64,000 nucleotides of DNA from Candidatus Parcubacteria bacterium (lineage in GTDB: Bacteria > Patescibacteriota > Minisyncoccia > Phycocordibacterales > UBA918). The stretch spans positions 1,563 through 65,562 of the forward strand of contig JAKFXN010000004.1 of NCBI GenBank assembly GCA_021731405.1. Direction: 5' to 3'. Below, one piece after another: positions 5,196-54,562 of the stretch. The notes under the pieces were generated by a model. It was not told the DNA's origin, did not search any database, and saw only the letters and a program-made list of their open reading frames with translations. The translations under genes and the position numbers were made by a program. Numbering within the stretch: position 1 is the first letter of the stretch; each line of letters begins with the position of its first letter.

Positions 5196-5462
5196 CTATT
5201 TTCTTTTTAACTGGTAGACTCGCAAAATTTCTTCAGTAGCTTTGGCAGCTTTTCCAACTTTAATTTGGTTCACAACACAGTTACTAAGGTGTTCTTCAAG
5301 TAATACATCTTCAATGTTTGAAAGTGCTTGCTTGATGGCAGAGGTTTGGGTAATGACATCAATACAGTACGTTTCTTTCTCAATCATACCTTGCAAGCCA
5401 CGCACTTGACCTTCGATGATCTTAAGTCGACGAATTAGTTTTTTATGTGATTCTTTCATCAT
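5196..5462 (-). CDS. csoR: CsoR/RcnR-family (DUF156) copper-sensing transcriptional repressor
   Basis: 88 aa, with the C-H-C signature (YCIDV...EEHLSNC). Near-identical paralog at 27350..27616. A palindromic operator lies directly upstream. Confidence 0.8.
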   Translation of the reverse strand: MMKESHKKLIRRLKIIEGQVRGLQGMIEKETYCIDVITQTSAIKQALSNIEDVLLEEHLSNCVVNQIKVGKAAKATEEILRVYQLKRK

Positions 5463-9318: not shown

Positions 9319-10497
9319 TTAGTTGTCATTGTCGTCATCTCTATCATCGTTACCAACGTTTAACTGTAAACTACCGCGAACATCTAGGAGACGGTCGTCC
9401 TTATCATCAGAGTTACGATCATCATCTCCTGAATCACCATCATCCTTGTCATCGTTAGAATCGTCATCTTGGCCAGCATCGTTTAAGTCGTCTTTGTCAT
9501 CTCGGCTATCGTCGTCAGATTCATTCTCACTTTCTCTTTTGTCTTCAAAATCATCGTCATCAGGTGTCTTGGTGTCGATACGTATTTCACCGTCTTTCTC
9601 TCGGATACGAATTCTGTTTTCGTCATCACGGATTTCGATTCGGCTGTCATCTCCATCATCGTCATTTCTAATTTCTACCCAAGCGTTGGTATCTTGGATA
9701 CGCATCCGCTGTGAGTTCATCTTTACCGGCACTCCATCCAGTAGGGTAGAAAGTTCTGAAAGAAGGGTGTTTCGAGTGTCGTCGTCAAAATTTCCGTTGA
9801 GTACATACCCAAGGGTAATAGCAACGGCCTCGTTTACACGAACTTCATTTTCGCCTGAAATAGTCAGCTTTGACTTGTCTTCTGCCTGACTTCCTCGATC
9901 TTCCACTTCAAAATCTAAATTTGTCTCTACTACCGCTCGGGTCACCCCAAAGCGATTCATAATCTCAAGTACTACTTCTTCTCGTGTGTCAGCATTGGTC
10001 TCAAACACCGTCTTCCGGTCATTGAGTTCCACTTCAACAATAGTAGTGTCTGAAAAGACATCTGCTTCAGCTTCAAAGCTGTTGGTAGTAGACGCTGTAA
10101 TAACGCGATTGTTCTTTTGTACAGATTCGTTCAAAATTGAGCTGAGCTCTAAAAGTCGTTCTGCTGCAAACTGAGCTTCCAGGCGGGTTTTTGTTTCGTC
10201 ACTCGAGAGAGCGAGACGAAGTTCTTCAACCTTCTGTTCAATCACAAATAATGAGTCACCAGGACGAGCTGTCTCTGAAGCCGCTACAATTCCCGTGGTA
10301 CCAAGCATCAACATCAAGGCAAGAGCAATAGGAACCATATGTTTTTTTTGGTTAAATATAAATAAATAAGGCGACAGTGTAGGGGTCGAGTTGCCAACGT
10401 GTGTATCTATTTTATCCCACAGCGCATCTTTCTCCGTTTGCGAAAGCTTCGGAGTGTAACCATCTAGGGTTTCTGAAATTTTATTGTTTTCATCCAT
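9319..10497 (-). CDS. membrane-anchored putative anti-sigma factor with a poly-acidic (D/E-rich) C-terminal region
   Basis: Immediately downstream of, and 2 nt from, the sigma-factor gene. Single TM helix (HMVPIALALMLMLGTTGIVAA). C-terminal ~120 aa are about 50% Asp with IRxxDxxIRI micro-repeats. Confidence 0.45.
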   Translation of the reverse strand: MDENNKISETLDGYTPKLSQTEKDALWDKIDTHVGNSTPTLSPYLFIFNQKKHMVPIALALMLMLGTTGIVAASETARPGDSLFVIEQKVEELRLALSSDETKTRLEAQFAAERLLELSSILNESVQKNNRVITASTTNSFEAEADVFSDTTIVEVELNDRKTVFETNADTREEVVLEIMNRFGVTRAVVETNLDFEVEDRGSQAEDKSKLTISGENEVRVNEAVAITLGYVLNGNFDDDTRNTLLSELSTLLDGVPVKMNSQRMRIQDTNAWVEIRNDDDGDDSRIEIRDDENRIRIREKDGEIRIDTKTPDDDDFEDKRESENESDDDSRDDKDDLNDAGQDDDSNDDKDDGDSGDDDRNSDDKDDRLLDVRGSLQLNVGNDDRDDDNDN

Positions 10498-10498
10498 A

Positions 10499-11035
10499 CT
10501 AGGTTTGATTAGTAAGCGTTGTTGCTAAAGATTTTAAGGCGCGGTGGTGGCGAACTCGTACCGCCGACTCTGTCATATTAAGAAGTGAAGCGATTTCGGG
10601 AAACGTGTACCTTGACCAGTGATGCAGAATTATAATTTCACGCGTGTCCTCCCCCAATGTATCTAGTGCCCGTCTAACACTATCTGCCTCTTCAATTTTG
10701 TCTGGAGGTGAAGCGGTGATTGATTCATCAAAGGCTATTTCCATCTCCATCTTATTGTTTGTAGACATATAGTATTTGGCAAGCTTTCGTTTTGTGATAA
10801 GGAAAACGAAGCTATAAAATTGAGCGTCAGACTGATATGTGAAATTTTGTAATCCGGCGTGTAGGTCAATAAATATCTCTTGCACAATGTCAGTTGCGGT
10901 ATCTCTATCCAAGACACGGTAACTAACATACGCAAAGATTTTATCTACAAGGAGTTCGTAGACAGTTTTAAAGCGCACAGAATACTCTGTGTCTTTTGCT
11001 GTTAGTAACGCTTGTAAGGTAACGTTTTCCGTCAT
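10499..11035 (-). CDS. sigma-70 family (ECF-like) RNA polymerase sigma factor
   Basis: Region 2 plus a region 4 HTH (LHHWSRYTFPEIASLLNMTESAVRVRHHRALKSL). Confidence 0.75.
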   Translation of the reverse strand: MTENVTLQALLTAKDTEYSVRFKTVYELLVDKIFAYVSYRVLDRDTATDIVQEIFIDLHAGLQNFTYQSDAQFYSFVFLITKRKLAKYYMSTNNKMEMEIAFDESITASPPDKIEEADSVRRALDTLGEDTREIIILHHWSRYTFPEIASLLNMTESAVRVRHHRALKSLATTLTNQT

Positions 11036-24338: not shown

Positions 24339-24375
24339 GCTTGCCCCATAACTATTGATTGAGAATTTTAATAAT

Positions 24376-24422
24376 AAAAAAAGCCCAGGACTTAGCGTGT
24401 AATAGCTAATAGTCCTGGGCTC
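24376..24422. terminator. bidirectional terminator
   Basis: AAAAAAAGCCCAGGACT...AGTCCTGGGCTCTT hairpin between convergent genes. Confidence 0.6.
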
Positions 24423-24445
24423 TTGTGACCATATTGGTCAACAGG

Positions 24446-25450
24446 TCACTTCTTGCGCATGACTTCCGTCACGGGCTCGATCTTGCCGGCGGTGATGCTG
24501 AAGACCGAATAACGGTCGTCGTCACCAGCCTTCGGGCACATCACGAGCGTTCCGCTGTTGAGGCCTTGGTCTCGCAGTCTTCGGATGCTGTCCATGTCGG
24601 AAGCCAAGATGACTTCTTCCAGCTCACCCTTGACGGGTACCGTCACGAAGGAAATGTTCTGCTGGGAAACCTTCTTCACCGAAGTGTTTTCCTTTGTCAC
24701 TGTGGCGACAGCATGACGGGCTTTCCTTGCGCCGTCTACTTTCACCGCGAAGGATTCGATCAGCTCCCCGATCTCCCCATTCTTGGTGTCGTACGAAGTG
24801 ACAGATATGCAGAAGGCGCCAGCACTGAGCACCAGCCATTCGTCACCGACCACAGGGTAGCCGTGACGGCGATCACCAGATAAGGTGTAGGCGAAGATGC
24901 GTTGACGGCCAGTGATTTCGGCCCGCTTGGCATCCCGCTTGGCGTAGTGCAAAGCACGCTCTCGTTCATATGCTGCGTCCACGGCAAGCTTTTCTGCTTT
25001 GCGCGCCTCGACCGAAGCCTTGTGGAGAGCCGTGCGAAGGGCTGCTTCACGCGGCGACCAGAGAGGTTCAAGACGTTCAGCCGCTGCGACCAGCTCCTTC
25101 AGCTGGACCAGCTCCTTCAGCTTCCGTCCACCGACAACTTCGTTGCCGATGATTTGGCGGTGCGAGAGATCTCGAACCGGCACCACCTCGTAGAGGGTGT
25201 GCCTGGTGGAGACCATGATGACGAGTTCGTCACCAACCTCGCGTAAGAACGCCATTCCGCCGAAGTTCTTGTGGTCTTTCGAGAAAGACCACACCTCTTT
25301 GCCGTCGAAGACGACCCGGGCAGGCAGGAATTCCGCATCAGACGAAGCGCGCGGTGACCGCAACTGCTCGATCTTGAAGCCCTCGAAGAGGGTAGTTTGC
25401 AGATGAAACCCGCGGGAGTCGGTGGTCTCGTTGGTGATGGTCCAGGTCAT
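24446..25450 (-). CDS. hypothetical protein encoded in a GC-rich (~58%) island, likely horizontally acquired
   Basis: 334-aa ORF with protein-like composition. GC content and codon usage differ sharply from the flanking genes. No recognisable motifs. Confidence 0.5.
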   Translation of the reverse strand: MTWTITNETTDSRGFHLQTTLFEGFKIEQLRSPRASSDAEFLPARVVFDGKEVWSFSKDHKNFGGMAFLREVGDELVIMVSTRHTLYEVVPVRDLSHRQIIGNEVVGGRKLKELVQLKELVAAAERLEPLWSPREAALRTALHKASVEARKAEKLAVDAAYERERALHYAKRDAKRAEITGRQRIFAYTLSGDRRHGYPVVGDEWLVLSAGAFCISVTSYDTKNGEIGELIESFAVKVDGARKARHAVATVTKENTSVKKVSQQNISFVTVPVKGELEEVILASDMDSIRRLRDQGLNSGTLVMCPKAGDDDRYSVFSITAGKIEPVTEVMRKK

Positions 25451-25629
25451 GGCATGCTCCTTCTTAAGTTCCCCACAGAACTAAGGTATGTAAAGAATTG
25501 GTGTGTGGGCACCGCTATAAATATTATAGCACAATTCTAGGTAAAAAGCAAGTATTTAAGACCTAGAATAGAGCGAGTAACAAAGCTTATTTTAGCTACT
25601 AAGTCCGTCAGTGGTATCATATGTAAGAT

Positions 25630-27349: not shown

Positions 27350-27616
27350 TTATTTTCTTTTTAGTTGATAGACCTGCAAGATTTCTTTAGTAGCCTTGTC
27401 AATTTTACCCGCTTTAATTTGGCTTACGACACAATGTTGCAGGTGGTCTTCTAATAAAATATCCTCGACATTTGAAAGAGCCTGTTTGATAGCTGAGGTC
27501 TGAGTAATTACATCAATACAGTACGTTTCATTTTCAATCATTGCTTGCAAGCCACGAACTTGCCCCTCAATTATTTTTAAACGGCGGATTAATTTTTTCT
27601 TGTCTTGTATCATCAC
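27350..27616 (-). CDS. csoR: CsoR/RcnR-family copper-sensing repressor (second copy)
   Basis: About 85% identical to 5196..5462, with the same YCIDV / H..C signature. Confidence 0.8.
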   Translation of the reverse strand: MMIQDKKKLIRRLKIIEGQVRGLQAMIENETYCIDVITQTSAIKQALSNVEDILLEDHLQHCVVSQIKAGKIDKATKEILQVYQLKRK

Positions 27617-36112: not shown

Positions 36113-36146
36113 AAAAGCGCCGACCCCTAGGGGTTGGTGCTTTTAG
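36113..36146. terminator. terminator after nrdA
   Basis: AAAAGCGCCGACCCCTAGGGGTTGGTGCTTTTAG. Confidence 0.6.
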
Positions 36147-36258
36147 TTTGTAAACACCACCCTTGCTTGCAAGCTTATTTTTCTAGGAGTACCATGTTTA
36201 ATACCTCAGGCCAATGGTGGCAGGAGGAGAAACAAGTACCTTCACAGAGGAGTAAAAA

Positions 36259-36471
36259 ATGGGAAATCAAACAGGCGGTGACTTTTGCGGCGGCCTACCG
36301 ACTGAAGAACGGAATCTGCTCACGGGCAGTACCACCAAAACAACCACAACCAATGGATCCTGCGGTTCCGATACCAGTCATCTCTCAAACACCCGCCTTG
36401 CCCGGCAGGCCACCAACCCGGTGAGTCAACTGCGGCCTGGTTGGCACCCCAATCTCAAACCCAAGGGTTGA
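36259..36471 (+). CDS. small hypothetical protein in a GC-rich island (70 aa, Thr/Ser/Gly-rich, 3 Cys)
   Basis: GGAGTAAAAAATG RBS context, followed by a terminator at about 36490..36515 (AAAGCCGCCcttcaccaGGCGGCTTTT). Overlaps another frame (36134..36424), so coding status is uncertain. Confidence 0.3.
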   Translation: MGNQTGGDFCGGLPTEERNLLTGSTTKTTTTNGSCGSDTSHLSNTRLARQATNPVSQLRPGWHPNLKPKG

Positions 36472-36601
36472 TTCCAACCCAAGCCACAAAGCCGCCCTTC
36501 ACCAGGCGGCTTTTCACATTTTAGCTAGGAGATAATTGACACTAAGGGTAAGCAGTTGTAGTCTAAATAGGGTTCTTTTCACAACGCAACAGGAGAAATA
36601 G

Positions 36602-36952
36602 ATGCCAGCAGGCAGAAGACAAGAGGGTCGTGTGGGGTTCGGTCGAAAATCAGTCAAGGACGATAAAAGAAGCCTGACTCCGGCGGCAGATAAAACAGCA
36701 CCTAAGGCTGCTGAAGATGTAAAGGAATGGTTCGAGAGAACTGTCGAGGATGAAGATCTGAAGCAATTTGCCCGTGACAACCCTTCCATCTTTCCCTTCG
36801 CAGTGGAGCGGGCTAAGAAATATGGTCGCTCTGAAAAGGAAATCAATGATTTGATTGTTCAGGCCATCACGGCAGAGTACAGTGCCAGACGAGTTCAAAA
36901 AAAACACAGAAGGATTGTCGCCGCCTGTCAGTCGTATCACAGAACTCCCTAA
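36602..36952 (+). CDS. small basic hypothetical protein in a GC-rich island
   Basis: Upstream TTGACA-17-TAGTCT promoter-like element and CAGGAGAAATAGATG RBS. A terminator follows at 36974..36999. GC is about 55% versus about 42% in the flanks. Confidence 0.45.
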   Translation: MPAGRRQEGRVGFGRKSVKDDKRSLTPAADKTAPKAAEDVKEWFERTVEDEDLKQFARDNPSIFPFAVERAKKYGRSEKEINDLIVQAITAEYSARRVQKKHRRIVAACQSYHRTP

Positions 36953-37070
36953 CCGCAGAACCACCTCACCCACAAAGCGCCCCTTACAAGGCGCTTTTTT
37001 CGTAGGTGTTGAAAGCTCGACTATTCTTCTTCTGGGGCAGTGTATTATGTAGAGAAGCTTCTGATGTGTA

Positions 37071-37134
37071 AGGACAGAGAGCAGGGACTACGTATCGCGA
37101 CTACGCAGTCCCCGCTCTCTGTCTTTTTATTTTA
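37071..37134. terminator. long hairpin terminator
   Basis: GGACAGAGAGCAGGGACTACG..CGTAGTCCCCGCTCTCTGTCTTTTTATTTT. Confidence 0.6.
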
Positions 37135-48222: not shown

Positions 48223-49929
48223 TTGGGTATTGTAAGGATATCTATGGAAGGAGTTATTACAACAGCTATCGCTGAAACACTGAAAGAGCTCGGTCTTCCC
48301 GAAGCTGATTTTGCAGTGGAGCACCCAAGCGAAACCTCACATGGGGACTATGCCTGTAACGTGGCGATGGTGTTATCTAAAACTGTAGGAAAGGCGCCGC
48401 GTGAGCTCGCTATCGAGATAAGCAAAGTACTTGAAGGCAAGATTGAATATGTCGAAAAAATCCAAATTGCCGGTCCAGGCTTTCTCAACTTCTACCTCAC
48501 GCGCGATTTTTTCTCAGCGGAAATTGAACGAGCAAATACGCTTGGAGCTGAGTGGGGTAAAAACACCCTCTGGTCTGGTAAGAAAGTGTTAGTTGAATAC
48601 ACTGACGCTAACCCGTTTAAAGAATTTCATATTGGGCATCTCTTCACTAATGCAGTGGGCGAAAGTATCGCCAGACTCTTTATGATGAATGGGGCTGATA
48701 CTAAGCGTATCAACTACCAAGGTGATATAGGGCTCCATGTCGCTCATGCAGTGTGGGGGATGCAAAAGCTCGGCATTGATGTCGAAAGTGATTTTTCTGC
48801 GCGCGAACTCGGCAAAGCATATGCACTTGGGGCTACTACGTACAAAGTAGATGAAGCTGCCGCTGCAGAAATACGAGCTATCAATAAAAAAATCTACGAC
48901 CGCAGTGATGAGTCAATAAATACACTCTACGACAAAGGTCGTGAAGTTTCTCTTGCGTATTTTGAGACGGTCTACAAAGTTATCGGAACTGACTTTGACG
49001 TCTCTTTCTTTGAGAGTGAAAGTGGGATAAAGGGAAAAGAGCTGGTGCTTTCAAATCCAGCTGTCTTTCCTGAAAGTGAAGGTGCGCGAATTTTTAAGGG
49101 TGAAGAGTATGGTCTCCATACTCGCGTATTCTTAAATAAAGAGGGTCTGCCTACTTATGAGGCAAAAGAATTGGCCTTGGCGAAGATGAAAGAGGATACA
49201 CTTGGTGTGTATGACTTGTCAGTAATCAGTACCGCAAACGAAGTGAGTGAATATTTTAAAGTGCTTAAAAAAGCTATGAGCTTTGTGTATCCAGAGCTTG
49301 AAGCTAAAACTGAGCATATTGGTCATGGTATGGTTCGCCTCACTACCGGTAAGATGTCTTCACGAACTGGGGATGTTATTCCAGCTATCGATTTTATTGA
49401 TGAAGTAGCAGTAGCAGCAACTCAAAAAATGGCTACAGAGGGAGATAGTGAGCCTGACGAGGTGCTGGCGCGCGATGTGGCAATAGCAGCTATTAAATAC
49501 GCCACACTCCGCGGGTCTATTTTACAGAACTCGATTTTTGATAAAGACAAAGCCTTGTCGTTTGAAGGGGATTCTGGTCCGTATCTGCAGTACACTCATG
49601 CGCGTATCTGTAGTGTACTCACCAAAGCAGCGGAAGCGGGTCTTAAGAGTAGCGTAGCGCTCGTACCAGAAGGTGTGTATGAAGTTGAGCGACTGGTCTA
49701 TCAATTTCCTGAAGTGATTGAAAAAGCGCTTAGTGAGCGTGCTCCGCATAAAGTGACTGGGTATCTAACTGAGCTTGCGTCAGCCTTCAATACGTTTTAC
49801 GCTCACGAGAAAATTGCTGACCGTGAAGATACCTATGCACCATACAAGATAGCGCTCGCAGAAGCGGTTCGCACCACCCTTAAAAATGGTCTATGGGTAC
49901 TTGCTATCAAAGCTCCTAATAAGATGTAA
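48223..49929 (+). CDS. argS: arginine--tRNA ligase
   Basis: HIGH (FHIGHLFTNAVG) and the ArgRS anticodon-binding C-terminal region. Confidence 0.95.
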   Translation: MGIVRISMEGVITTAIAETLKELGLPEADFAVEHPSETSHGDYACNVAMVLSKTVGKAPRELAIEISKVLEGKIEYVEKIQIAGPGFLNFYLTRDFFSAEIERANTLGAEWGKNTLWSGKKVLVEYTDANPFKEFHIGHLFTNAVGESIARLFMMNGADTKRINYQGDIGLHVAHAVWGMQKLGIDVESDFSARELGKAYALGATTYKVDEAAAAEIRAINKKIYDRSDESINTLYDKGREVSLAYFETVYKVIGTDFDVSFFESESGIKGKELVLSNPAVFPESEGARIFKGEEYGLHTRVFLNKEGLPTYEAKELALAKMKEDTLGVYDLSVISTANEVSEYFKVLKKAMSFVYPELEAKTEHIGHGMVRLTTGKMSSRTGDVIPAIDFIDEVAVAATQKMATEGDSEPDEVLARDVAIAAIKYATLRGSILQNSIFDKDKALSFEGDSGPYLQYTHARICSVLTKAAEAGLKSSVALVPEGVYEVERLVYQFPEVIEKALSERAPHKVTGYLTELASAFNTFYAHEKIADREDTYAPYKIALAEAVRTTLKNGLWVLAIKAPNKM

Positions 49930-50025
49930 CTTTGTTACTTGCCAAAGTTGTAGGTCTGTTGTAATATCTCGCTTCGTACTTCCGATGGTCGGAAGTACGA
50001 AAGTCCTTTTTTTGGAGAAAAGAAG

Positions 50026-50364
50026 ATGAAGAAACGTCCAGTAGTGTTGTTCTTTCCCGATTCCTCCGCTGCCAATCCGAATCCGCATCCCATCATGCTG
50101 CGGTGCACTACGGCCTGTCCTGATGACTTCATCCAGAAGTGCTCGGACCAGCTGAATCAGCTCGAGTTCACACATCCCCAAGGACGGGGCAAGGTGCTCG
50201 TCGGTCGTGAACACGAACCGCACATCGTGAAGCAAGACAGCCAGCACCCGAGCGCCATTGTCTGGGGAGGTGTCCAGAGGTCGGGTAAATTTCCCATCTT
50301 CGTCCGCCCGCACATCTCCAAGCTCTTCTCGTCGTCTGCGGCCACGGCTACCGCCACGATGTAA
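50026..50364 (+). CDS. small hypothetical protein in a GC-rich island
   Basis: GGAGAAAAGAAGATG RBS, followed by the terminator CCATCCGttcGCGGATGGTTTTTTT (50386..50411). GC is about 57%. 112 aa with a C-terminal SSSAATATATM tail. Confidence 0.4.
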   Translation: MKKRPVVLFFPDSSAANPNPHPIMLRCTTACPDDFIQKCSDQLNQLEFTHPQGRGKVLVGREHEPHIVKQDSQHPSAIVWGGVQRSGKFPIFVRPHISKLFSSSAATATATM

Positions 50365-50487
50365 GTCGTCACAGCCTAGACCAAGCCATCCGTTCGCGGA
50401 TGGTTTTTTTCTTGCAAAAGAAATTTTTGTTGCTAGTATGCTGCGTGGAGCTTTCAATGGTTGAAGGTACGTACAAGGAGAAAACAC

Positions 50488-50769
50488 ATGGAAAAAATTT
50501 GTCGCCCACCGTTTCGAAAAGGACACATCGTGACTGTGGCGCAAGGTTTGTTTGATGGCCTTGCGCCAGGACAGGCTTTGGCTCGCAAGATGCTTTTTTT
50601 GGGGGTTGACCAAACCTCTTGGGTTGAGGTTACCGACTTTGTGCGGAAAATTGGCCCTGACGTCTCGGTCGAGTTCCTGCAGCTGGACCCCAAAGACCTG
50701 CATACGGCGTATCTTGAGATGGTGTTTGTCACCGGAGAAGCTGCGATTCAGAGCCACTACCCCAACTGA
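50488..50769 (+). CDS. small hypothetical protein in a GC-rich island
   Basis: AAGGAGAAAACACATG RBS, preceded by a TTGTTG..TAGTATGCT promoter-like sequence, followed by the terminator AAAAAGCCGCCCCATAAAGGCGGCTTTTC (50786..50816). Confidence 0.4.
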   Translation: MEKICRPPFRKGHIVTVAQGLFDGLAPGQALARKMLFLGVDQTSWVEVTDFVRKIGPDVSVEFLQLDPKDLHTAYLEMVFVTGEAAIQSHYPN

Positions 50770-51019
50770 GTAGCCTCGGTTGCCAAAAAGCCGCCCCATA
50801 AAGGCGGCTTTTCTTTTGGGTAGCGTTTGTTATGATGCCTAAGTACATCTGATACATGTGCTCTGAGTCTTTGAAAAAATTGTAGCTACGAGGCGTGGAG
50901 AAGTAAGTGTGAGAGGCGTACTTTTGGTACGTTGAACACATGGGCGACGAACACAACAATGTAGGTACAATTTTTACGAAGACTCTACTTATTATGTCTG
51001 ATACACATAGCTATAATTT

Positions 51020-54000
51020 ATGTCTAAAAAAATTAATCGTGAGAACGATACAGTAGAGGTAATGCCCGATGTCCAAAAATCAGAAGTAGCCCTTCGTGAA
51101 GAAGCGATTCAACAGTTTTGGCTCGAGCATGATATTTTTAATAAAAGTTTAGTGACTCCTGGTGGAGGCACCTGCAAGGGAGACTTTGTATTTTATGACG
51201 GACCACCGTTTGCGACGGGAACGCCACACTACGGCCATATTTTGGCTGGCACTATCAAAGATGCTATTCCACGCTTTTGGACAATGAACGGCTACCGTGT
51301 CCGTCGGAAGTGGGGCTGGGATTGCCATGGGCTTCCACTGGAAAATTTGATTGAAAAGAAACTCGGTCTTGCCAACAAGCGCGACATCGAGGATTTTGGT
51401 GTAAAGAATTTTAACGAAGCAGCGCGCGCTGCGGTGATGGAGTATGCGGACGATTGGAAAAAAGTTGTACCACGCATGGGGCGCTGGGCAGATATGGAAG
51501 ACGACTACAAGACGATGGACACTAGCTATACCGAAAGTGTGTGGTGGGTATTTAAGACACTCTACGAGAAAGGTCTCGTGTATGAAGGTTTTAAGAGTAT
51601 GCATCTGTGTCCACGTTGTGGGACAACGCTCTCAAACTTTGAAGTGAATCAAGGATACAAAGATATCAAAGATATTGCCGTGACGGTAAAGCTCCCGCTG
51701 CTCGATGAAACAGGGAATGTGACCAATACCTCACTCTTGGTTTGGACTACGACCCCGTGGACGCTGCCGGGCAATATGGCTGCAGCGGTGCATCAAGATT
51801 TTACGTACGTGAAAGTGAAGCTGTCTACAGAAACAGGAGAAGAGTTTGTCATTTTGGCAAAGGGTCGACTAGCTCAACTTGGAGACGTTTCTCATGAGGT
51901 AGTGGGAGAAATAACAGGTTCCGAACTTGTGGGTCGTTCATACGAGCCACCATTTGCGTACTTCAAAGACAGAGATATTAAAGGAAAAGAAAATGCTTGG
52001 AAGATTTATCATGCTGACTACGTCGAGTTAGGAGAGGATGGCACTGGCGCAGTGCACCTTGCTCCGGCCTACGGAGAAGAAGACTTGCAGCTCGCGCAGC
52101 GGGAAGGAGTGCCGGTAGTGCATCATGTGAGTTATGAAGGTCGTTTCATGGACTTCATTACCGACTTTGCGGGACAGCTTGTGAAGCCGAAAGATGATGA
52201 CGCCGCTGGCGTTGATCATAAAGACGCTGATATTGAGATTCTGAAAGCCCTTCAGGCAACTGGGAAAATTTTCAAAAAAGAAAACATCACACACAGCTAC
52301 CCGCACTGTTGGCGTGACGAAACACCACTTCTCAACTATGCGACGACGTCGTGGTTTGTGAAGGTGACTGATATAAAAGATGATTTGGTGGCTGCTAATA
52401 ATTTGGTTCATTGGGTACCAGACCACGTGGGTGCAAACCGTTTTGGAAAGTGGCTTGAAGGAGCACGGGATTGGGCTATTTCGAGGCAGCGTTACTGGGG
52501 GGCTCCGCTCCCAATCTGGCGGAATCCAGAGACGGGTGATATCAAAGTGCTGGGTTCACTTAAAGAACTCAAAGACCTCTTGCCAAAACGTGGCAATGAG
52601 TATTTTGTGATGCGCCATGCAGAAGCACAGAGCAACCTCACTGGGGTGATTGATGCAATTGCTGATGAAAATAATCCGCTTACCCCAGCTGGCGAGGCAC
52701 AGTGTCTAGAAGTGGCAGAGACACTGCGTGACAAAAACATTACTAAGATTGTGCATTCAGGTATGCAACGTACGCGCGATACCGCCGAGCGGATTGCAGC
52801 AGCTTTAGGTTTATCCAAGGAGGCGATTGTGATAGACAGTAGACTTATTGAGCTTCAAACTGGTAAAGACTACGAAGGTAAAACCTGGGATGAATACAAC
52901 TCCAACTACGCAAGTGAAGAAGAGAAGTTTAGTAAGGTTATTCCTGGTGTAGAAAATCGGTACGATCTTATTAAGCGAGTCGGAGCATTTTTGTACGAAT
53001 TTGATGCAAAGATTGAAAATGAGCGGGTGCTCATAGTTAGTCATGCAAGCTCTACGTTTGCGCTCCAGTGTGTAGCAGAAGGAGCTGAGCATGAACGGGT
53101 GATTGAGCTCAAGAAAGCAGGCTACCTAAAAAATGCTGAGGTACGACCACTCCCATTTACTGCAGTTCCGCACAATGACAACTACGCGCTTGATTACCAC
53201 CGTCCCTATATTGATGATATTGAACTCTATGAAAATGGGGTAAAGCTGGTGCGGGTACCGGACGTTTTTGATTGTTGGTTTGAAAGTGGCTCAATGCCGT
53301 ATGGCCAGCATCATTACCCGTTTGAGGGTAAAGAAAATTTTGAGGGCCCTCATTTTCCAGCCCAGTTTATTGCGGAAGGTCTTGACCAAACGCGCGGTTG
53401 GTTCTACTCACTCATTGTGCTTGGTGTGGCGCTCTTTGGAAAATCACCGTACGAAAACGTGATTGTAAATGGTCTGGTGCTCGCAGAAGATGGAAAGAAG
53501 ATGAGTAAGTCACTGCGCAATTACCCAGATCCAATGGAAGTAGCAGATCGGGTGGGAGTAGACGCGATACGGTACTATCTTCTTTCTGCGCCAATTATGC
53601 GTGGGGAAGACCTCAACTTTTCAGAAAAGGAAGTACTGGAACTCCAGCGTAAAAATATTGGTCGACTTCACAATGTGCTTTTAATGTATGAAATGTTTGC
53701 TGATGGCACCAAAGCAAATGCCGCTTCAGGTAATGTGCTTGATAGATGGATTGTTGCTCGGCTAAATCAGCTGGTAGCAGAATCAACTACAGGCTACAAA
53801 AATTACGAACTTGATAAAGCCACTCGTCCCGTAACTGACTTCATTGAAGACTTATCTGTTTGGTATCTTCGCCGTTCACGCGAACGCCTCAAGGGTGATG
53901 ATGCAGCTGACAAGGCGCTTGCTCTAGGGACACTCCGTCATGTACTTCATACCTTAGCGCAGACAATCGCTCCAGCGATGCCATTTTATGCGGAGTACTT

Positions 54001-54562
54001 GTACTTAGCTGTAAAAGAAGAGAGTGAAGTAGAAAGTGTGCACCTGACTGCTTGGCCAGAAGGGGGAGAGGTTAACATGGACATAATAATCGACATGGCT
54101 GCCGCTCGAGAAATTGTGACCAAAGCACTAGAAGCGCGCACAAAAGCTGGCATTAAGGTACGGCAGCCTATTGCAGAATTGAGGATTCCCGTACTGCTTG
54201 GTGATTCTTTCATAGAAGTTATTAAGGAGGAGATGAATGTAAAAAAAGTCACAGTAGTTGAATCTGAAGACATGAGTTCTGTCTGGGTTGATACCGTCAT
54301 TACACCTGAACTAAAGGCCGAAGGGGAAGTGCGCGAGTTTATGCGAGCGGTCCAAGAGAAGCGTAAGCAAGATGGGCTTGAACCACAAGATCGAGTTGCG
54401 CTTGTCGTGCAAGCGACCAGTGAAGGACGACAAGTACTTGAGACCTTTAAGGAAATGCTCACAAAGACCGTCGGTGCAACCGAGCTCATGTTCACTGATG
54501 TCGAAGGAGAGAGTGTCACTGCTGGGGAACATACCTTTGTGATTGCTCTCAAAAAACTATAA
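51020..54562 (+). CDS. ileS: isoleucine--tRNA ligase (type 2/eukaryote-like) carrying an inserted histidine-phosphatase (PGAM-like) domain
   Basis: HYGHILAG (HIGH), WAISRQRYWGAPLP, KMSKSLRN. A ~170-aa insert between GSLKELKDLL and DYHRPYIDDI carries RHAE..N, HSGMQRTRDTA and LIVSHASS, the histidine-phosphatase branch-1 signatures. Confidence 0.95.
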   Translation: MSKKINRENDTVEVMPDVQKSEVALREEAIQQFWLEHDIFNKSLVTPGGGTCKGDFVFYDGPPFATGTPHYGHILAGTIKDAIPRFWTMNGYRVRRKWGWDCHGLPLENLIEKKLGLANKRDIEDFGVKNFNEAARAAVMEYADDWKKVVPRMGRWADMEDDYKTMDTSYTESVWWVFKTLYEKGLVYEGFKSMHLCPRCGTTLSNFEVNQGYKDIKDIAVTVKLPLLDETGNVTNTSLLVWTTTPWTLPGNMAAAVHQDFTYVKVKLSTETGEEFVILAKGRLAQLGDVSHEVVGEITGSELVGRSYEPPFAYFKDRDIKGKENAWKIYHADYVELGEDGTGAVHLAPAYGEEDLQLAQREGVPVVHHVSYEGRFMDFITDFAGQLVKPKDDDAAGVDHKDADIEILKALQATGKIFKKENITHSYPHCWRDETPLLNYATTSWFVKVTDIKDDLVAANNLVHWVPDHVGANRFGKWLEGARDWAISRQRYWGAPLPIWRNPETGDIKVLGSLKELKDLLPKRGNEYFVMRHAEAQSNLTGVIDAIADENNPLTPAGEAQCLEVAETLRDKNITKIVHSGMQRTRDTAERIAAALGLSKEAIVIDSRLIELQTGKDYEGKTWDEYNSNYASEEEKFSKVIPGVENRYDLIKRVGAFLYEFDAKIENERVLIVSHASSTFALQCVAEGAEHERVIELKKAGYLKNAEVRPLPFTAVPHNDNYALDYHRPYIDDIELYENGVKLVRVPDVFDCWFESGSMPYGQHHYPFEGKENFEGPHFPAQFIAEGLDQTRGWFYSLIVLGVALFGKSPYENVIVNGLVLAEDGKKMSKSLRNYPDPMEVADRVGVDAIRYYLLSAPIMRGEDLNFSEKEVLELQRKNIGRLHNVLLMYEMFADGTKANAASGNVLDRWIVARLNQLVAESTTGYKNYELDKATRPVTDFIEDLSVWYLRRSRERLKGDDAADKALALGTLRHVLHTLAQTIAPAMPFYAEYLYLAVKEESEVESVHLTAWPEGGEVNMDIIIDMAAAREIVTKALEARTKAGIKVRQPIAELRIPVLLGDSFIEVIKEEMNVKKVTVVESEDMSSVWVDTVITPELKAEGEVREFMRAVQEKRKQDGLEPQDRVALVVQATSEGRQVLETFKEMLTKTVGATELMFTDVEGESVTAGEHTFVIALKKL

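What the first reader, a model, noticed from the sequence alone, without database searches (positions are those of the whole stretch)
24446..25450. Three small GC-rich (55-58%) islands of orphan genes embedded in a 42% GC genome
Three segments have markedly higher GC and different codon usage than their flanks: 24446..25450 (a 334-aa orphan, minus strand), 36134..36999 (70- and 116-aa genes) and 49935..50816 (112- and 94-aa genes). Each gene has its own RBS, and the islands carry promoter-like sequences and hairpin terminators. Antisense frames across them give long Arg-rich junk ORFs, which are rejected. Their size (about 0.9-1 kb each), autonomy and foreign composition suggest recently acquired selfish or defence-type cargo such as toxin/immunity pairs or phage-derived genes. 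None has a recognisable motif.
Basis: seen in the sequence. Interest (0 to 1): 0.55.

Follow-up and report, generated by a model that had tools for sequence, protein, structure and literature searches.

The report
GC-rich gene cassette with structured leader
The main "island" is not freshly imported DNA but a self-contained gene of a large, uncharacterised family of ultra-small (CPR/Patescibacteria) bacteria that is always far GC-richer than its host genome and carries a previously undescribed folded RNA leader; the other two "islands" are weaker and hold small, fast-evolving genes in variable slots between housekeeping genes.

Summary
Island 1 (24446-25450, minus strand) is real: 57.9% GC against 44.8% for the window, with GC3 0.70 against 0.41±0.06. 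Islands 2 and 3 are weaker (49.5% and 52.2%). The 334-aa gene is not an orphan. It belongs to a family with 342 representatives at the 50%-identity cluster level. Every named genome that carries it is Patescibacteria, and Pfam, NCBIfam, PADLOC, PHROGs, PDB, phage and plasmid collections do not recognise it. In 14 of 14 loci from several CPR lineages (host GC 35-52%) the family gene is the most GC3-rich gene present. GC-richness is therefore a trait of the family and not evidence of recent import. EF-Tu and ribosomal-protein genes do not share the bias. G3 and C3 rise about equally, and the coding sequence folds more stably than synonymous shuffles (z -2.6 to -5.9; host genes -0.3±0.9). Ten members share a conserved promoter, terminator and ~65-nt leader made of two hairpins with complementary, covarying loops (a kissing-loop), which is absent from Rfam. 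The protein diverges much faster than its syntenic neighbours. Of the small genes, g70 and g112 have homologs in the same slots of relatives and g93 has none. The publicly annotated 302-aa antisense ORF is spurious. Protein function is unknown.

The parts
25546..25551 (-). -35 box TTGCTT of the 334-aa gene's promoter
   Evidence: Read. It lies 17 nt upstream of the -10 box. The same TTGCTT/TTGACT-17-TGnTATAAT arrangement occurs in L004, L095, L096, L098, L099 and L008.
25523..25531 (-). Extended -10 box TGcTATAAT; predicted transcription start near 25516
   Evidence: The spacing from the -10 box to hairpin 1 is 7-11 nt in 9 of 10 loci, which puts hairpin 1 at the 5' end of the transcript (inference, no TSS data).
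25451..25515 (-). Conserved 5' leader RNA: hairpin 1 (25513-25500, loop CCCACA 25509-25504), pyrimidine-rich linker (25499-25486), hairpin 2 (25485-25463, loop UGUGGG 25477-25472). The two loops are complementary (kissing-loop). SD AAGGAG at 25462-25457.
   Evidence: Alignment A3 of 10 loci. 99.4% of cells pair, and 8 of 18 pairs show changes on both sides, a level reached by 0 of 500 shuffles. Register-shift controls pair only 37-57%. All three helices covary, including 3 of the 6 loop-loop pairs. RNAalifold finds both hairpins. Covariance model R1 hits only this site in the window (83 bits) and only family genes in 850 kb of other CPR DNA. There is no Rfam match.
24446..25450 (-). CDS of a 334-aa protein, a member of a large uncharacterised Patescibacteria family. 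Layout: N-terminal beta domain (1-106), helix (111-124), 48-residue helix (133-180), then two alpha/beta modules (185-252, 267-331).
   Evidence: 31 homologs and 342 cluster representatives. Alignment A1 shows the motifs GDRRHGxPVVGDEW, FCISVTSYD and GLNSGTLVMCPKAGD. AF2 pLDDT is 89.4 for the full protein and 91.2 for the C-terminal half. GC3 is 0.704. The mRNA folds more stably than synonymous shuffles, z -3.4.
24372..24424 (-). Intrinsic terminator of the 334-aa gene: 14-bp stem (arms 24411-24424 and 24379-24392) followed by a T-run
   Evidence: Inverted repeat I3, 93% complementary; the T-run is read. The related sequence cccagga...acgctaag.cctggg+T occurs downstream of the gene in L004, L008 and L095.
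36259..36471 (+). g70: small conserved gene (70 aa) with its own SD; terminator hairpin at 36490-36514
   Evidence: 58% identical homolog (E 4e-27) in the same slot after the RNR large subunit in L014. GC 56.8%, partly from GC2 0.61.
36602..36952 (+). g116: small, fast-evolving gene (116 aa) with its own promoter-like site and SD; terminator hairpin at 36976-37000
   Evidence: A near-identical copy exists in ENA (P0173). A 102-aa gene in the same position in L014 also starts MPxGR, but similarity is weak (E 0.002). GC3 is an ordinary 0.45.
50026..50364 (+). g112: small gene (112 aa), GC3 0.71; terminator hairpin at 50383-50406
   Evidence: Homolog (141 aa, 28% identity, E 2e-14) directly after ArgRS in L019 on the same strand. 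Terminator.
50488..50769 (+). g93: small ORF (93 aa) with SD AAGGAG; terminator hairpin at 50786-50812. No homolog found.
   Evidence: Sequence read; terminator. No hits, so whether it is coding rests on the expression signals alone.
49891..50799 (-). Spurious 302-aa antisense ORF, called as a gene in the public annotation
   Evidence: P0175 is recorded in NCBI and Logan. The ORF spans three + strand terminator hairpins and overlaps the ArgRS 3' end. The opposite-strand g112 frame is the one conserved in L019.

Best explanation
Island 1 is a complete, self-contained transcription unit that many CPR bacteria carry as an accessory cassette. It consists of a near-consensus extended -10 promoter, a ~65-nt leader RNA of two hairpins whose 6-nt loops pair with each other, a strong Shine-Dalgarno site, a GC3-rich coding sequence and a long-stem terminator. 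Its GC-richness is an intrinsic, maintained property of the family and not a scar of recent import. The mechanism I consider most likely (inferred, not shown) is selection for a heavily base-paired, nuclease-resistant and therefore long-lived mRNA. The 5'-terminal kissing hairpins cap the 5' end and sit against the ribosome-binding site. The coding region is enriched equally in G and C at silent sites because base pairs need both. The terminator hairpin caps the 3' end. The product is a cytoplasmic three-part protein (beta domain, long helix, two SH2-like alpha/beta modules), probably a binding or scaffold protein. It diverges several-fold faster than neighbouring genes and shows mosaic N-termini, as expected for a protein involved in some form of molecular recognition. 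Islands 2 and 3 are a different and weaker case: variable-content slots between conserved housekeeping genes, holding small, fast-evolving, separately transcribed genes. Only g112 among them shares the strong GC3 bias.
For: Shown:
- The GC excess is family-wide. The gene is first in GC3 in 14 of 14 loci, with z 3.7-13.5.
- Gene GC tracks host GC (r 0.66, slope 0.66).
- It is not translational selection. In L100 the family gene has GC3 0.63 while EF-Tu has 0.41 and the ribosomal proteins 0.34-0.49. In the window, L11, S6, NusG and SSB have 0.33-0.46.
- The shift is symmetric: dC3 +0.147 and dG3 +0.132.
- The CDS folds more stably than shuffles that keep the protein and the codon counts: z -3.4, -4.6, -4.9, -2.9, -2.6 and -5.9 in six members. 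Fourteen host genes give -0.33±0.88 and the small island genes +0.8 to -1.1.
- The leader has three covarying helices, is specific to the family and is absent from Rfam.
- Hairpin 1 starts 7-11 nt after the -10 box in 9 of 10 loci.
- Promoter, leader and terminator are conserved across different genomic contexts.
- The gene keeps its slot while flanks stay 70-91% identical and the gene falls to 39-51%.
- There are no flanking repeats, integrase or tRNA, and no viral, phage or plasmid copies.
Against: - There are no expression, TSS or half-life data, so the link between mRNA structure and stability is inferred.
- The excess CDS folding is diffuse and not positionally conserved. It could be a by-product of something else.
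- Single-sequence folding energies of the leader are unremarkable (z +0.1 to -1.8).
- A recombination-driven GC bias would also raise G3 and C3 symmetrically. It is suggested by the mosaic pairs P0008/P0011 and P0009/P0013 and by the low identity of alleles within conserved slots.
- One member, L096, exceeds its flanks by only 4 GC points.
- The gene does move between contexts, for example into the S10-L3 junction in L100. Repeated transfer from an unsampled GC-rich reservoir therefore cannot be excluded.
- The protein's function is unknown.
Confidence: 0.42

Rival explanations
1. Recombination hot spot with GC-biased gene conversion. The cassette is exchanged frequently between CPR strains and lineages by homologous recombination, with the conserved leader and terminator or the flanking genes as anchors. 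Repeated heteroduplex repair biased toward G/C raises GC3, and allele replacement explains the low identity in conserved slots.
For: G3 and C3 rise symmetrically. Close pairs are mosaic, with the N-terminal 30-60 residues 33-50% identical and the remainder 83-100%. Flanks are 70-91% identical while the gene is 39-51% in the same slot. Many homologs lie on short contigs, consistent with strain heterogeneity. The association of recombination with higher GC3 in bacteria is from my own knowledge of the literature (Lassalle et al. 2015), not from a tool.
Against: The GC rise stops exactly at the CDS borders, while the adjacent leader and promoter remain AT-rich yet conserved. Biased conversion does not predict more folding than synonymous shuffles with the same codon counts. 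No recombination rates were measured.
Confidence: 0.25
2. One reading: recently acquired foreign DNA from a donor of higher GC (phage, plasmid or another organism), not yet ameliorated, possibly selfish or defence cargo.
For: All three codon positions are shifted as expected for a genome of about 58% GC (GC1 0.61, GC2 0.42, GC3 0.70); the expected relationship is from my own knowledge. The gene occupies different contexts in different genomes and interrupts the S10-L3 operon junction in L100. The ArgRS-IleRS slot is empty in some relatives and filled with different small GC-rich genes in others.
Against: The same excess appears in 14 of 14 hosts spanning 35-52% GC, and gene GC correlates with host GC. 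The gene persists in the same slot across lineages with diverged flanks. No copy was found in a GC-matched context. There are no viral, phage or plasmid hits, no repeats, integrase or adjacent tRNA, and no defence, TA or phage family hits.
Confidence: 0.15
3. Codon optimisation of a very highly expressed gene (translational selection for C-ending codons).
For: The promoter, SD and terminator are strong. There is a strong preference for C over T in two-fold codons (TTC, ATC, AAC, GAC, CAC, TAC).
Against: EF-Tu and the ribosomal-protein genes of the same genomes do not show it. G-ending codons rise as much as C-ending ones. GC1 and GC2 are raised as well.
Confidence: 0.03
4. Assembly chimera or contamination: GC-rich reads from another organism joined into a CPR contig.
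For: The composition borders are sharp.
Against: The identical gene with the same flanks occurs in three independent run assemblies and in the NCBI contig. Host-type AT-rich promoter, leader and terminator abut the CDS. The trait recurs in 13 other loci from unrelated samples.
Confidence: 0.01

Closest known systems
5'-UTR mRNA stabilisers with a 5'-terminal hairpin (E. coli ompA leader; B. subtilis aprE/ermC-type 5' stem-loops) - from my own knowledge
   Same: A hairpin within a few nucleotides of the predicted 5' end, a single-stranded linker, then a second hairpin immediately before the ribosome-binding site. The element is strictly tied to one gene.
   Different: The two loops are Watson-Crick complementary and covary, forming a kissing-loop, which is not a feature of ompA-type leaders. 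No half-life data exist. The TSS is only predicted.
Guanidine-II riboswitch (mini-ykkC, Rfam RF01068) - from my own knowledge
   Same: Two small hairpins joined by a variable linker; a loop-loop interaction; the second hairpin adjacent to the SD; translational control is plausible.
   Different: The loops are 6 nt with a variable, covarying sequence, not conserved ACGR tetraloops. There is no Rfam hit. The leader is found with a single gene family and not with a set of transporters or enzymes. No ligand is implied.
Compositionally atypical genomic islets acquired by horizontal transfer
   Same: Sharp GC and codon-usage deviation, an autonomous gene, variable genomic context, and insertion into conserved operons in some genomes.
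   Different: The deviation goes the same way in every host examined and is kept within conserved slots. There are no mobility genes or repeats and no donor. Foreign DNA in bacteria is usually AT-richer than its host, not GC-richer (my own knowledge).
Tandem SH2 domains (PLC-gamma, SHP2, ZAP-70, Spt6)
   Same: The best, and highly recurrent, Foldseek hits of the C-terminal half: E 5e-3 for tandem arrangements, and probability 0.97-0.99 for ~55-residue SH2 cores at ~3 Å. Both modules have a G-x-[FL]-[CV]-[IM] strand where SH2 has GxFLVRES.
   Different: No hit reaches E 1e-3. TM-scores are low (≤0.43 on the target). The phosphate-binding Arg of FLVRES is replaced by Ser/Cys. No sequence-profile match exists.

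Membership tests
Recently acquired genomic island | Composition deviates from the host genome | tested here: met
   57.9 vs 44.8% GC; GC3 z of about 5.
Recently acquired genomic island | The deviation is specific to this host, that is, it reflects a donor and not the gene family | tested here: not met
   The gene is the most GC3-rich gene in 14 of 14 loci from hosts of 35-52% GC, and gene GC tracks host GC.
Recently acquired genomic island | Mobility signatures: integrase or transposase, flanking direct or inverted repeats, tRNA target | tested here: not met
   No bracketing repeats. The nearest tRNAs are more than 5 kb away. The neighbours are a GDSL lipase and a GNAT acetyltransferase.
Recently acquired genomic island | Empty site in close relatives | tested here: inconclusive
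   Island 1: no relative with the GDSL-GNAT junction was recovered. Island 3: the slot is 15-130 bp in some distant relatives but filled in the closest ones. Island 2: the slot is filled with homologs in L014.
Toxin-antitoxin or toxin-immunity pair | Two adjacent co-transcribed small genes with homology to known TA or immunity families | tested here: not met
   Each small gene has its own promoter-like site, SD and terminator. Pfam, PADLOC and NCBIfam give nothing significant; the best is HicA-like at E 0.01 for g116.
Anti-phage defence system (PADLOC-DB) | Match to a defence-protein model | tested here: not met
   0 families for the 334-aa protein and three relatives.
Phage-derived gene | Homolog in viral contigs, phage genomes or PHROGs | tested here: not met
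   IMG/VR none. INPHARED none. PHROGs best E 0.005, over the charged helix only. BFVD folds give no significant match.
Known structured RNA family (Rfam 15) | Covariance-model match in any island or in the leader | tested here: not met
   At gathering score only tRNAs are found elsewhere in the window. Permissive scans of the three islands and the leader give only chance-level hits.
Guanidine-II (mini-ykkC) riboswitch | Two hairpins with conserved ACGR tetraloops | tested here: not met
   The loops are CC[CU][AU][CU]A and U[GA][UA][GA]GG, 6 nt each.
Guanidine-II (mini-ykkC) riboswitch | Loop-loop pairing between the two hairpins, with the second hairpin next to the SD | tested here: met
   The 6-bp loop-loop helix is 100% paired and 3 of its pairs covary. 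The SD starts directly after hairpin 2.
ompA-type 5' mRNA stabiliser | Stem-loop at the extreme 5' end of the transcript | tested here: inconclusive
   Hairpin 1 begins 7-11 nt after the -10 box in 9 of 10 loci, but the TSS is predicted and not mapped.
ompA-type 5' mRNA stabiliser | The leader prolongs mRNA half-life | not testable with these tools
   Needs decay measurements.
SH2 domain | SH2 fold (central sheet flanked by two helices) | tested here: inconclusive
SH2 domain | Invariant phosphate-binding Arg (beta-B5, FLVRES) | tested here: not met
   The aligned strands read GAFCISVTS and GTLVMCPK, with no Arg at that position (alignment by eye).

The most novel reading that the evidence does not exclude
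A gene family of CPR bacteria has kept a gene-specific, GC-rich, hyper-structured mRNA for phylum-level evolutionary time because the RNA itself is under selection. It would be an 'armoured' long-lived message, or possibly a dual-function RNA, whose translation is gated by a new class of kissing-loop leader (a riboswitch, or an operator for its own product). It would control a rapidly diversifying recognition protein involved in host interaction or defence. The further short GC-rich islets seen in these genomes would then belong to the same phenomenon.
Probability: 0.22. Interest if true: 0.8.

Novelty: new variant of a known kind. Interest (0 to 1): 0.62.

Why it matters
Compositional islands are routinely read as recent horizontal transfer. 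Here the same anomaly recurs in every host of a gene family, so composition-based HGT calls would be systematically wrong for it, and some other force must hold silent sites about 30 points above the genomic GC3. That makes selection on mRNA structure versus biased gene conversion directly testable on a single compact gene. The work also yields a candidate new cis-regulatory RNA with unusually clean covariation, including an intramolecular kissing-loop, in a lineage with very few known regulatory RNAs. It defines a large, uncharacterised, fast-evolving protein family in the barely cultivated Patescibacteria. A practical consequence is that gene callers choose the wrong strand in these GC-rich islets, as the public annotation did in island 3.

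Tried and rejected
1. Islands as structured RNA genes. Rfam at gathering score and permissive scans found nothing. Homology shows that islands 1, 2 and part of 3 are coding.
2. Translational selection. Rejected by comparison with EF-Tu and ribosomal proteins.
3. Mobile-element signatures. No bracketing repeats and no tRNA nearby.
4. Phage or plasmid origin. IMG/VR, INPHARED, PLSDB, PHROGs and BFVD were all negative.
5. Defence or TA function. PADLOC, Pfam and NCBIfam were negative.
6. A conserved RNA element inside the CDS. The excess folding is not positionally conserved.
7. An anti-SD helix between the linker and the SD. It pairs in 94% of cells but shows no covariation, and shifted registers still pair 58-81%, so it is left open.
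8. The leader upstream of other genes. None found in the window or in 850 kb of CPR DNA.
10. Function from conserved neighbours. The contexts differ: GDSL/GNAT, RecG/malic enzyme, TerC/FtsX, S10/L3, PMT/MurJ.
11. Literature. Three keyword searches and one paper (PMC10936435) found no description of this family, this leader, or GC-rich genes in CPR.
12. Homologs of g112 and g93 by a concatenated query. None in the indexed database, although singleton entries seem not to be indexed there. g112's homolog came from synteny instead.
Full report
OBSERVATION. The window is 44.8% GC overall. 900-bp windows average 0.448 ± 0.027. Segment 24446-25450 is 57.9% GC with flanks of 43-46%, about 4.8 sd above the mean, and its borders fall on the start and stop codons of a 334-aa minus-strand ORF. 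36134-36999 is 49.5% and 49935-50816 is 52.2%, with local peaks of 57% and about 60%. By codon position, the 334-aa gene has GC1 0.61, GC2 0.42 and GC3 0.70, against a host GC3 of 0.415 ± 0.065, and it ranks 1st of 55 genes. g112 also has GC3 0.71. g70 is GC-rich partly through GC2 (0.61). g116 is ordinary at 0.45. All five reader-called genes have a strong Shine-Dalgarno site, an ATG start, and a GC-rich hairpin with a T-run right after the stop codon.

CONTEXT. The window is a Patescibacteria (CPR) chromosome segment carrying tRNAs, ribonucleotide reductase, ArgRS, IleRS, L11, S6, NusG and SSB. The 334-aa gene with identical flanks occurs in three independent run assemblies and in a 76-kb NCBI contig, which argues against an assembly chimera.

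NOT STRUCTURED RNA GENES AND NOT KNOWN PROTEINS. GC-rich stretches with poor ORFs on both strands suggested RNA genes, so I scanned Rfam at gathering score and permissively over each island. Nothing turned up. Pfam, NCBIfam, PADLOC, PHROGs and a PDB sequence profile gave nothing significant for any of the five products.

THE 334-AA GENE IS NOT AN ORPHAN. A word-indexed search found 31 homologs at 30-71% identity and of the same length. An exhaustive profile search found 342 representatives of 50%-identity clusters (196 at E ≤ 1e-30), nearly all 320-360 aa. Named genomes carrying it are Ca. Elulimicrobium, Ca. Paceibacterota, Ca. Wolfebacteria and Ca. Gracilibacteria, all in the Patescibacteria group. 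No viral contig, phage genome or plasmid encodes it. The alignment shows strongly conserved motifs: GDRRHGxPVVGDEW, FCISVTSYD, IESF and GLNSGTLVMCPKAGD.

GC-RICHNESS IS A FAMILY TRAIT. I fetched DNA for 13 further members from unrelated samples. In all 14 loci the family gene is GC-richer than the rest of its contig (+4 to +19 points; 13 of 14 are ≥ +10) and is the most GC3-rich gene present (z 3.7-13.5), in hosts from 35% to 52% GC. Gene GC correlates with host GC (r 0.66, slope 0.66). The gene therefore follows its host's composition with a roughly constant offset, which is not what a common GC-rich donor would produce.

RESIDENCE IN THE GENOME. In the lineages sampled the gene is a long-term resident of a fixed slot. 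L006, L008 and L097 all have RecG-gene-malic enzyme. L098 and L099 have TerC-gene-FtsX. The flanking proteins are 70-91% identical while the family protein is only 39-51% identical. At that flank divergence silent sites should be saturated (my inference), so a merely foreign composition should have decayed unless something maintains it or alleles are repeatedly replaced. The gene also moves: its contexts differ between lineages, and in L100 it sits with a pirin gene between S10 and L3, inside the ribosomal-protein operon next to EF-Tu. No repeats bracket it in the window.

WHAT MAINTAINS THE GC EXCESS. Translational selection is rejected. In L100 the family gene has GC3 0.63, against 0.41 for EF-Tu and 0.34-0.49 for six ribosomal-protein genes. 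L11, S6, NusG and SSB in the window have 0.33-0.46. Across 13 members, C3 and G3 rise about equally (+0.147 and +0.132), so the force is GC-directional and strand-symmetric. The coding sequences fold more stably than shuffles that preserve both the protein and the gene's own codon counts. The z-scores are -3.4 in the window and -4.6, -4.9, -2.9, -2.6 and -5.9 in five other members. Fourteen host genes give -0.33 ± 0.88 (minimum -1.8), and the four small island genes give +0.8 to -1.1. The excess is diffuse and not positionally conserved. Selection for a heavily paired mRNA would explain both the symmetry and the excess folding. GC-biased gene conversion at a recombination hot spot would explain the symmetry and the allele diversity but not the folding excess. 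Two of the three closest protein pairs are mosaics: the N-terminal 30-60 residues are 33-50% identical while the rest is 83-100%. Recombination or local diversification is therefore active in this gene.

A CONSERVED LEADER RNA. The non-coding upstream region is conserved in 10 loci even though the proteins are 39-72% identical and the contexts differ. It begins with a TTGCTT/TTGACT-17-TGnTATAAT promoter. Hairpin 1 (GGUG-CCNNNA-CACC) follows 7-11 nt later in 9 of 10 loci, then a pyrimidine-rich linker, then hairpin 2 (CUUAGUUC-UGUGGG-GAACUAAG) abutting the SD. The loop of hairpin 1 is the reverse complement of the loop of hairpin 2, and the two covary: CCCACA/UGUGGG, CCCUCA/UGAGGG, CCCAUA/UAUGGG and CCUACA/UGUAGG.

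STATISTICS FOR THE LEADER. On the 10-sequence alignment, 99.4% of cells pair. Eight of 18 pairs show changes on both sides, a level reached by 0 of 500 shuffles. Register-shift controls fall to 37-57% paired. Each of the three helices covaries. RNAalifold recovers both hairpins, and 7 of 8 single sequences do so in their MFE fold, although their energies are unremarkable. A covariance model finds the element once in the window (25448-25515, 83 bits). In 850 kb of other CPR DNA it finds only the nine other family loci, at 65-87 bits. Rfam has nothing like it. A possible linker:SD (anti-SD) helix pairs in 94% of cells but has no covariation support. Distant members (L009, L012, L013) lack this leader. 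The terminator sequence is also conserved in several members.

ISLANDS 2 AND 3. A relative, L014, has the same order: MscL, RNR small, RNR large (88% identical), two small genes, peptidase M10 (56%), SIMPL. Its first small gene is a 58%-identical homolog of g70 (E 4e-27). Its second also starts MPxGR and is a weak counterpart of g116 (E 0.002). That slot is not GC-rich in L014 (46.2 vs 44.1%). For island 3, a metagenome scan anchored on ArgRS returned 80 loci. ArgRS and IleRS are adjacent in 55 of them, but the gap ranges from 15 bp to 4.2 kb. One of the closest relatives, L019 (ArgRS 81%), has a 141-aa gene on the same strand directly after ArgRS that is homologous to g112 (28%, E 2e-14). Others (L018, L015/16, L037) hold different small, often GC-rich ORFs. 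g93 has no detectable homolog. None of the small genes has excess mRNA folding or the leader.

GENERALITY. A survey of about 0.7 Mb of fetched CPR DNA found 29 sharp GC-rich islets (≥350 bp, ≥ +10 points). Twelve are the family gene. The other 17 are 375-700 bp long with only small ORFs. In the ten loci scanned with Rfam, which hold most of those islets, no known RNA family was found in them.

VERDICT. The reading 'recent foreign cargo, toxin/immunity or phage' is largely unsupported. What is there is a conserved, autonomous, mobile-yet-resident cassette of a large uncharacterised CPR family. It has a family-wide GC3 excess, a hyper-structured mRNA, a novel covarying kissing-loop leader and a fast-evolving protein. 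The anatomy is shown. The mechanism (selection for a stable, base-paired mRNA, with the leader acting as stabiliser or translational gate) is inferred, and I hold it at about 0.4, with recombination-driven GC bias as the main rival. Literature searches found no prior description.

Noticed in passing
window 51020-54562 (insert at about 52604-53110): The IleRS is 1180 aa long and carries a complete histidine-phosphatase domain (His_Phos_1, aa 529-697, E 1.8e-27) inserted inside the class-I catalytic domain. IleRS in relatives is similarly long (1149-1197 aa).
   Followed up: partly
window 49891-50799 (-): Public annotation (NCBI/Logan) records a 302-aa antisense ORF across island 3. It spans three + strand terminators, and the opposite-strand frame is the conserved one. 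This is probably a systematic gene-caller error in GC-rich islets; L006 4842-5111(-) against L007 9508-9786(+) looks like the same problem.
   Followed up: yes
window 37070-37128; L014 about 10880-10940: A long, near-perfect hairpin with a T-run lies between g116's own terminator and the peptidase M10 gene. It is conserved in L014 with at least one compensatory change (A-U to C-G). It could be a second terminator or a regulatory or REP-like element.
   Followed up: no
L015-L094 (ArgRS-IleRS junction); window 49930-51019: ArgRS-IleRS adjacency is conserved in 55 of 80 related loci, but the gap varies from 15 bp to 4.2 kb. It holds unrelated small genes and, in some loci, a SulP-like transporter plus a carbonic-anhydrase-like gene. 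It is a hot spot for variable content.
   Followed up: partly
L100 3380-6402: The family gene plus a pirin gene interrupt the normally contiguous S10-L3 junction of the ribosomal-protein operon, next to EF-Tu.
   Followed up: partly
L010 9512-11011: In the Ca. Elulimicrobium MAG the family gene lacks its own start and leader and is fused in frame to an upstream ORF. The GC jump occurs inside the ORF. This is either a real fusion or a misassembly.
   Followed up: no
window 25529-25574: A perfect 9-bp inverted repeat, ATTCTAGGT-N18-ACCTAGAAT, straddles the -35 region of the 334-aa gene's promoter in the divergent intergenic region shared with the GNAT gene. It is not conserved in other family loci and may be a local operator.
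   Followed up: no
alignment A1 (P0008/P0011, P0009/P0013): Close family pairs are mosaics. The first 30-60 residues are 33-70% identical while the rest is 83-100% identical, which points to intragenic recombination or N-terminal diversification.
   Followed up: partly
L026 651-1025 and 1601-1975; L029/L030 about 430-1000 and 1330-1770; L042 11801-12200; L049 10501-11150; L093 6651-7200; L097 101-700; L008 6076-6600 and 20501-20975; L013 5976-6650; L006 4826-5250; L037 7926-8400: Seventeen further short GC-rich islets (+10 points, 375-700 bp) contain only small ORFs. Rfam found no known RNA family in those lying in the ten loci scanned (L006 was not scanned). They are possibly more members of the same phenomenon, or unknown RNAs.
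   Followed up: partly
L006 5180-5235 and 6440-6500: Nearly the same ~50-nt terminator-like hairpin occurs both upstream and downstream of the family gene, so it brackets the cassette. The upstream copy probably terminates another small GC-rich gene.
   Followed up: no
window 25088-25122: An exact 17-nt tandem duplication (GACCAGCTCCTTCAGCT twice, spacing 18) lies inside the 334-aa CDS and encodes the repeated KELVQLKELV at the start of the helical region.
   Followed up: no
window 9319-11035 (-): An ECF-type sigma factor (10499-11035) is followed by a 392-aa protein with one membrane segment and an extremely Asp-rich C-terminal tail, possibly an unusual anti-sigma factor. Two CsoR-like metal repressors (5196-5462, 27350-27616) and a DUF305 protein lie near island 1.
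   Followed up: no
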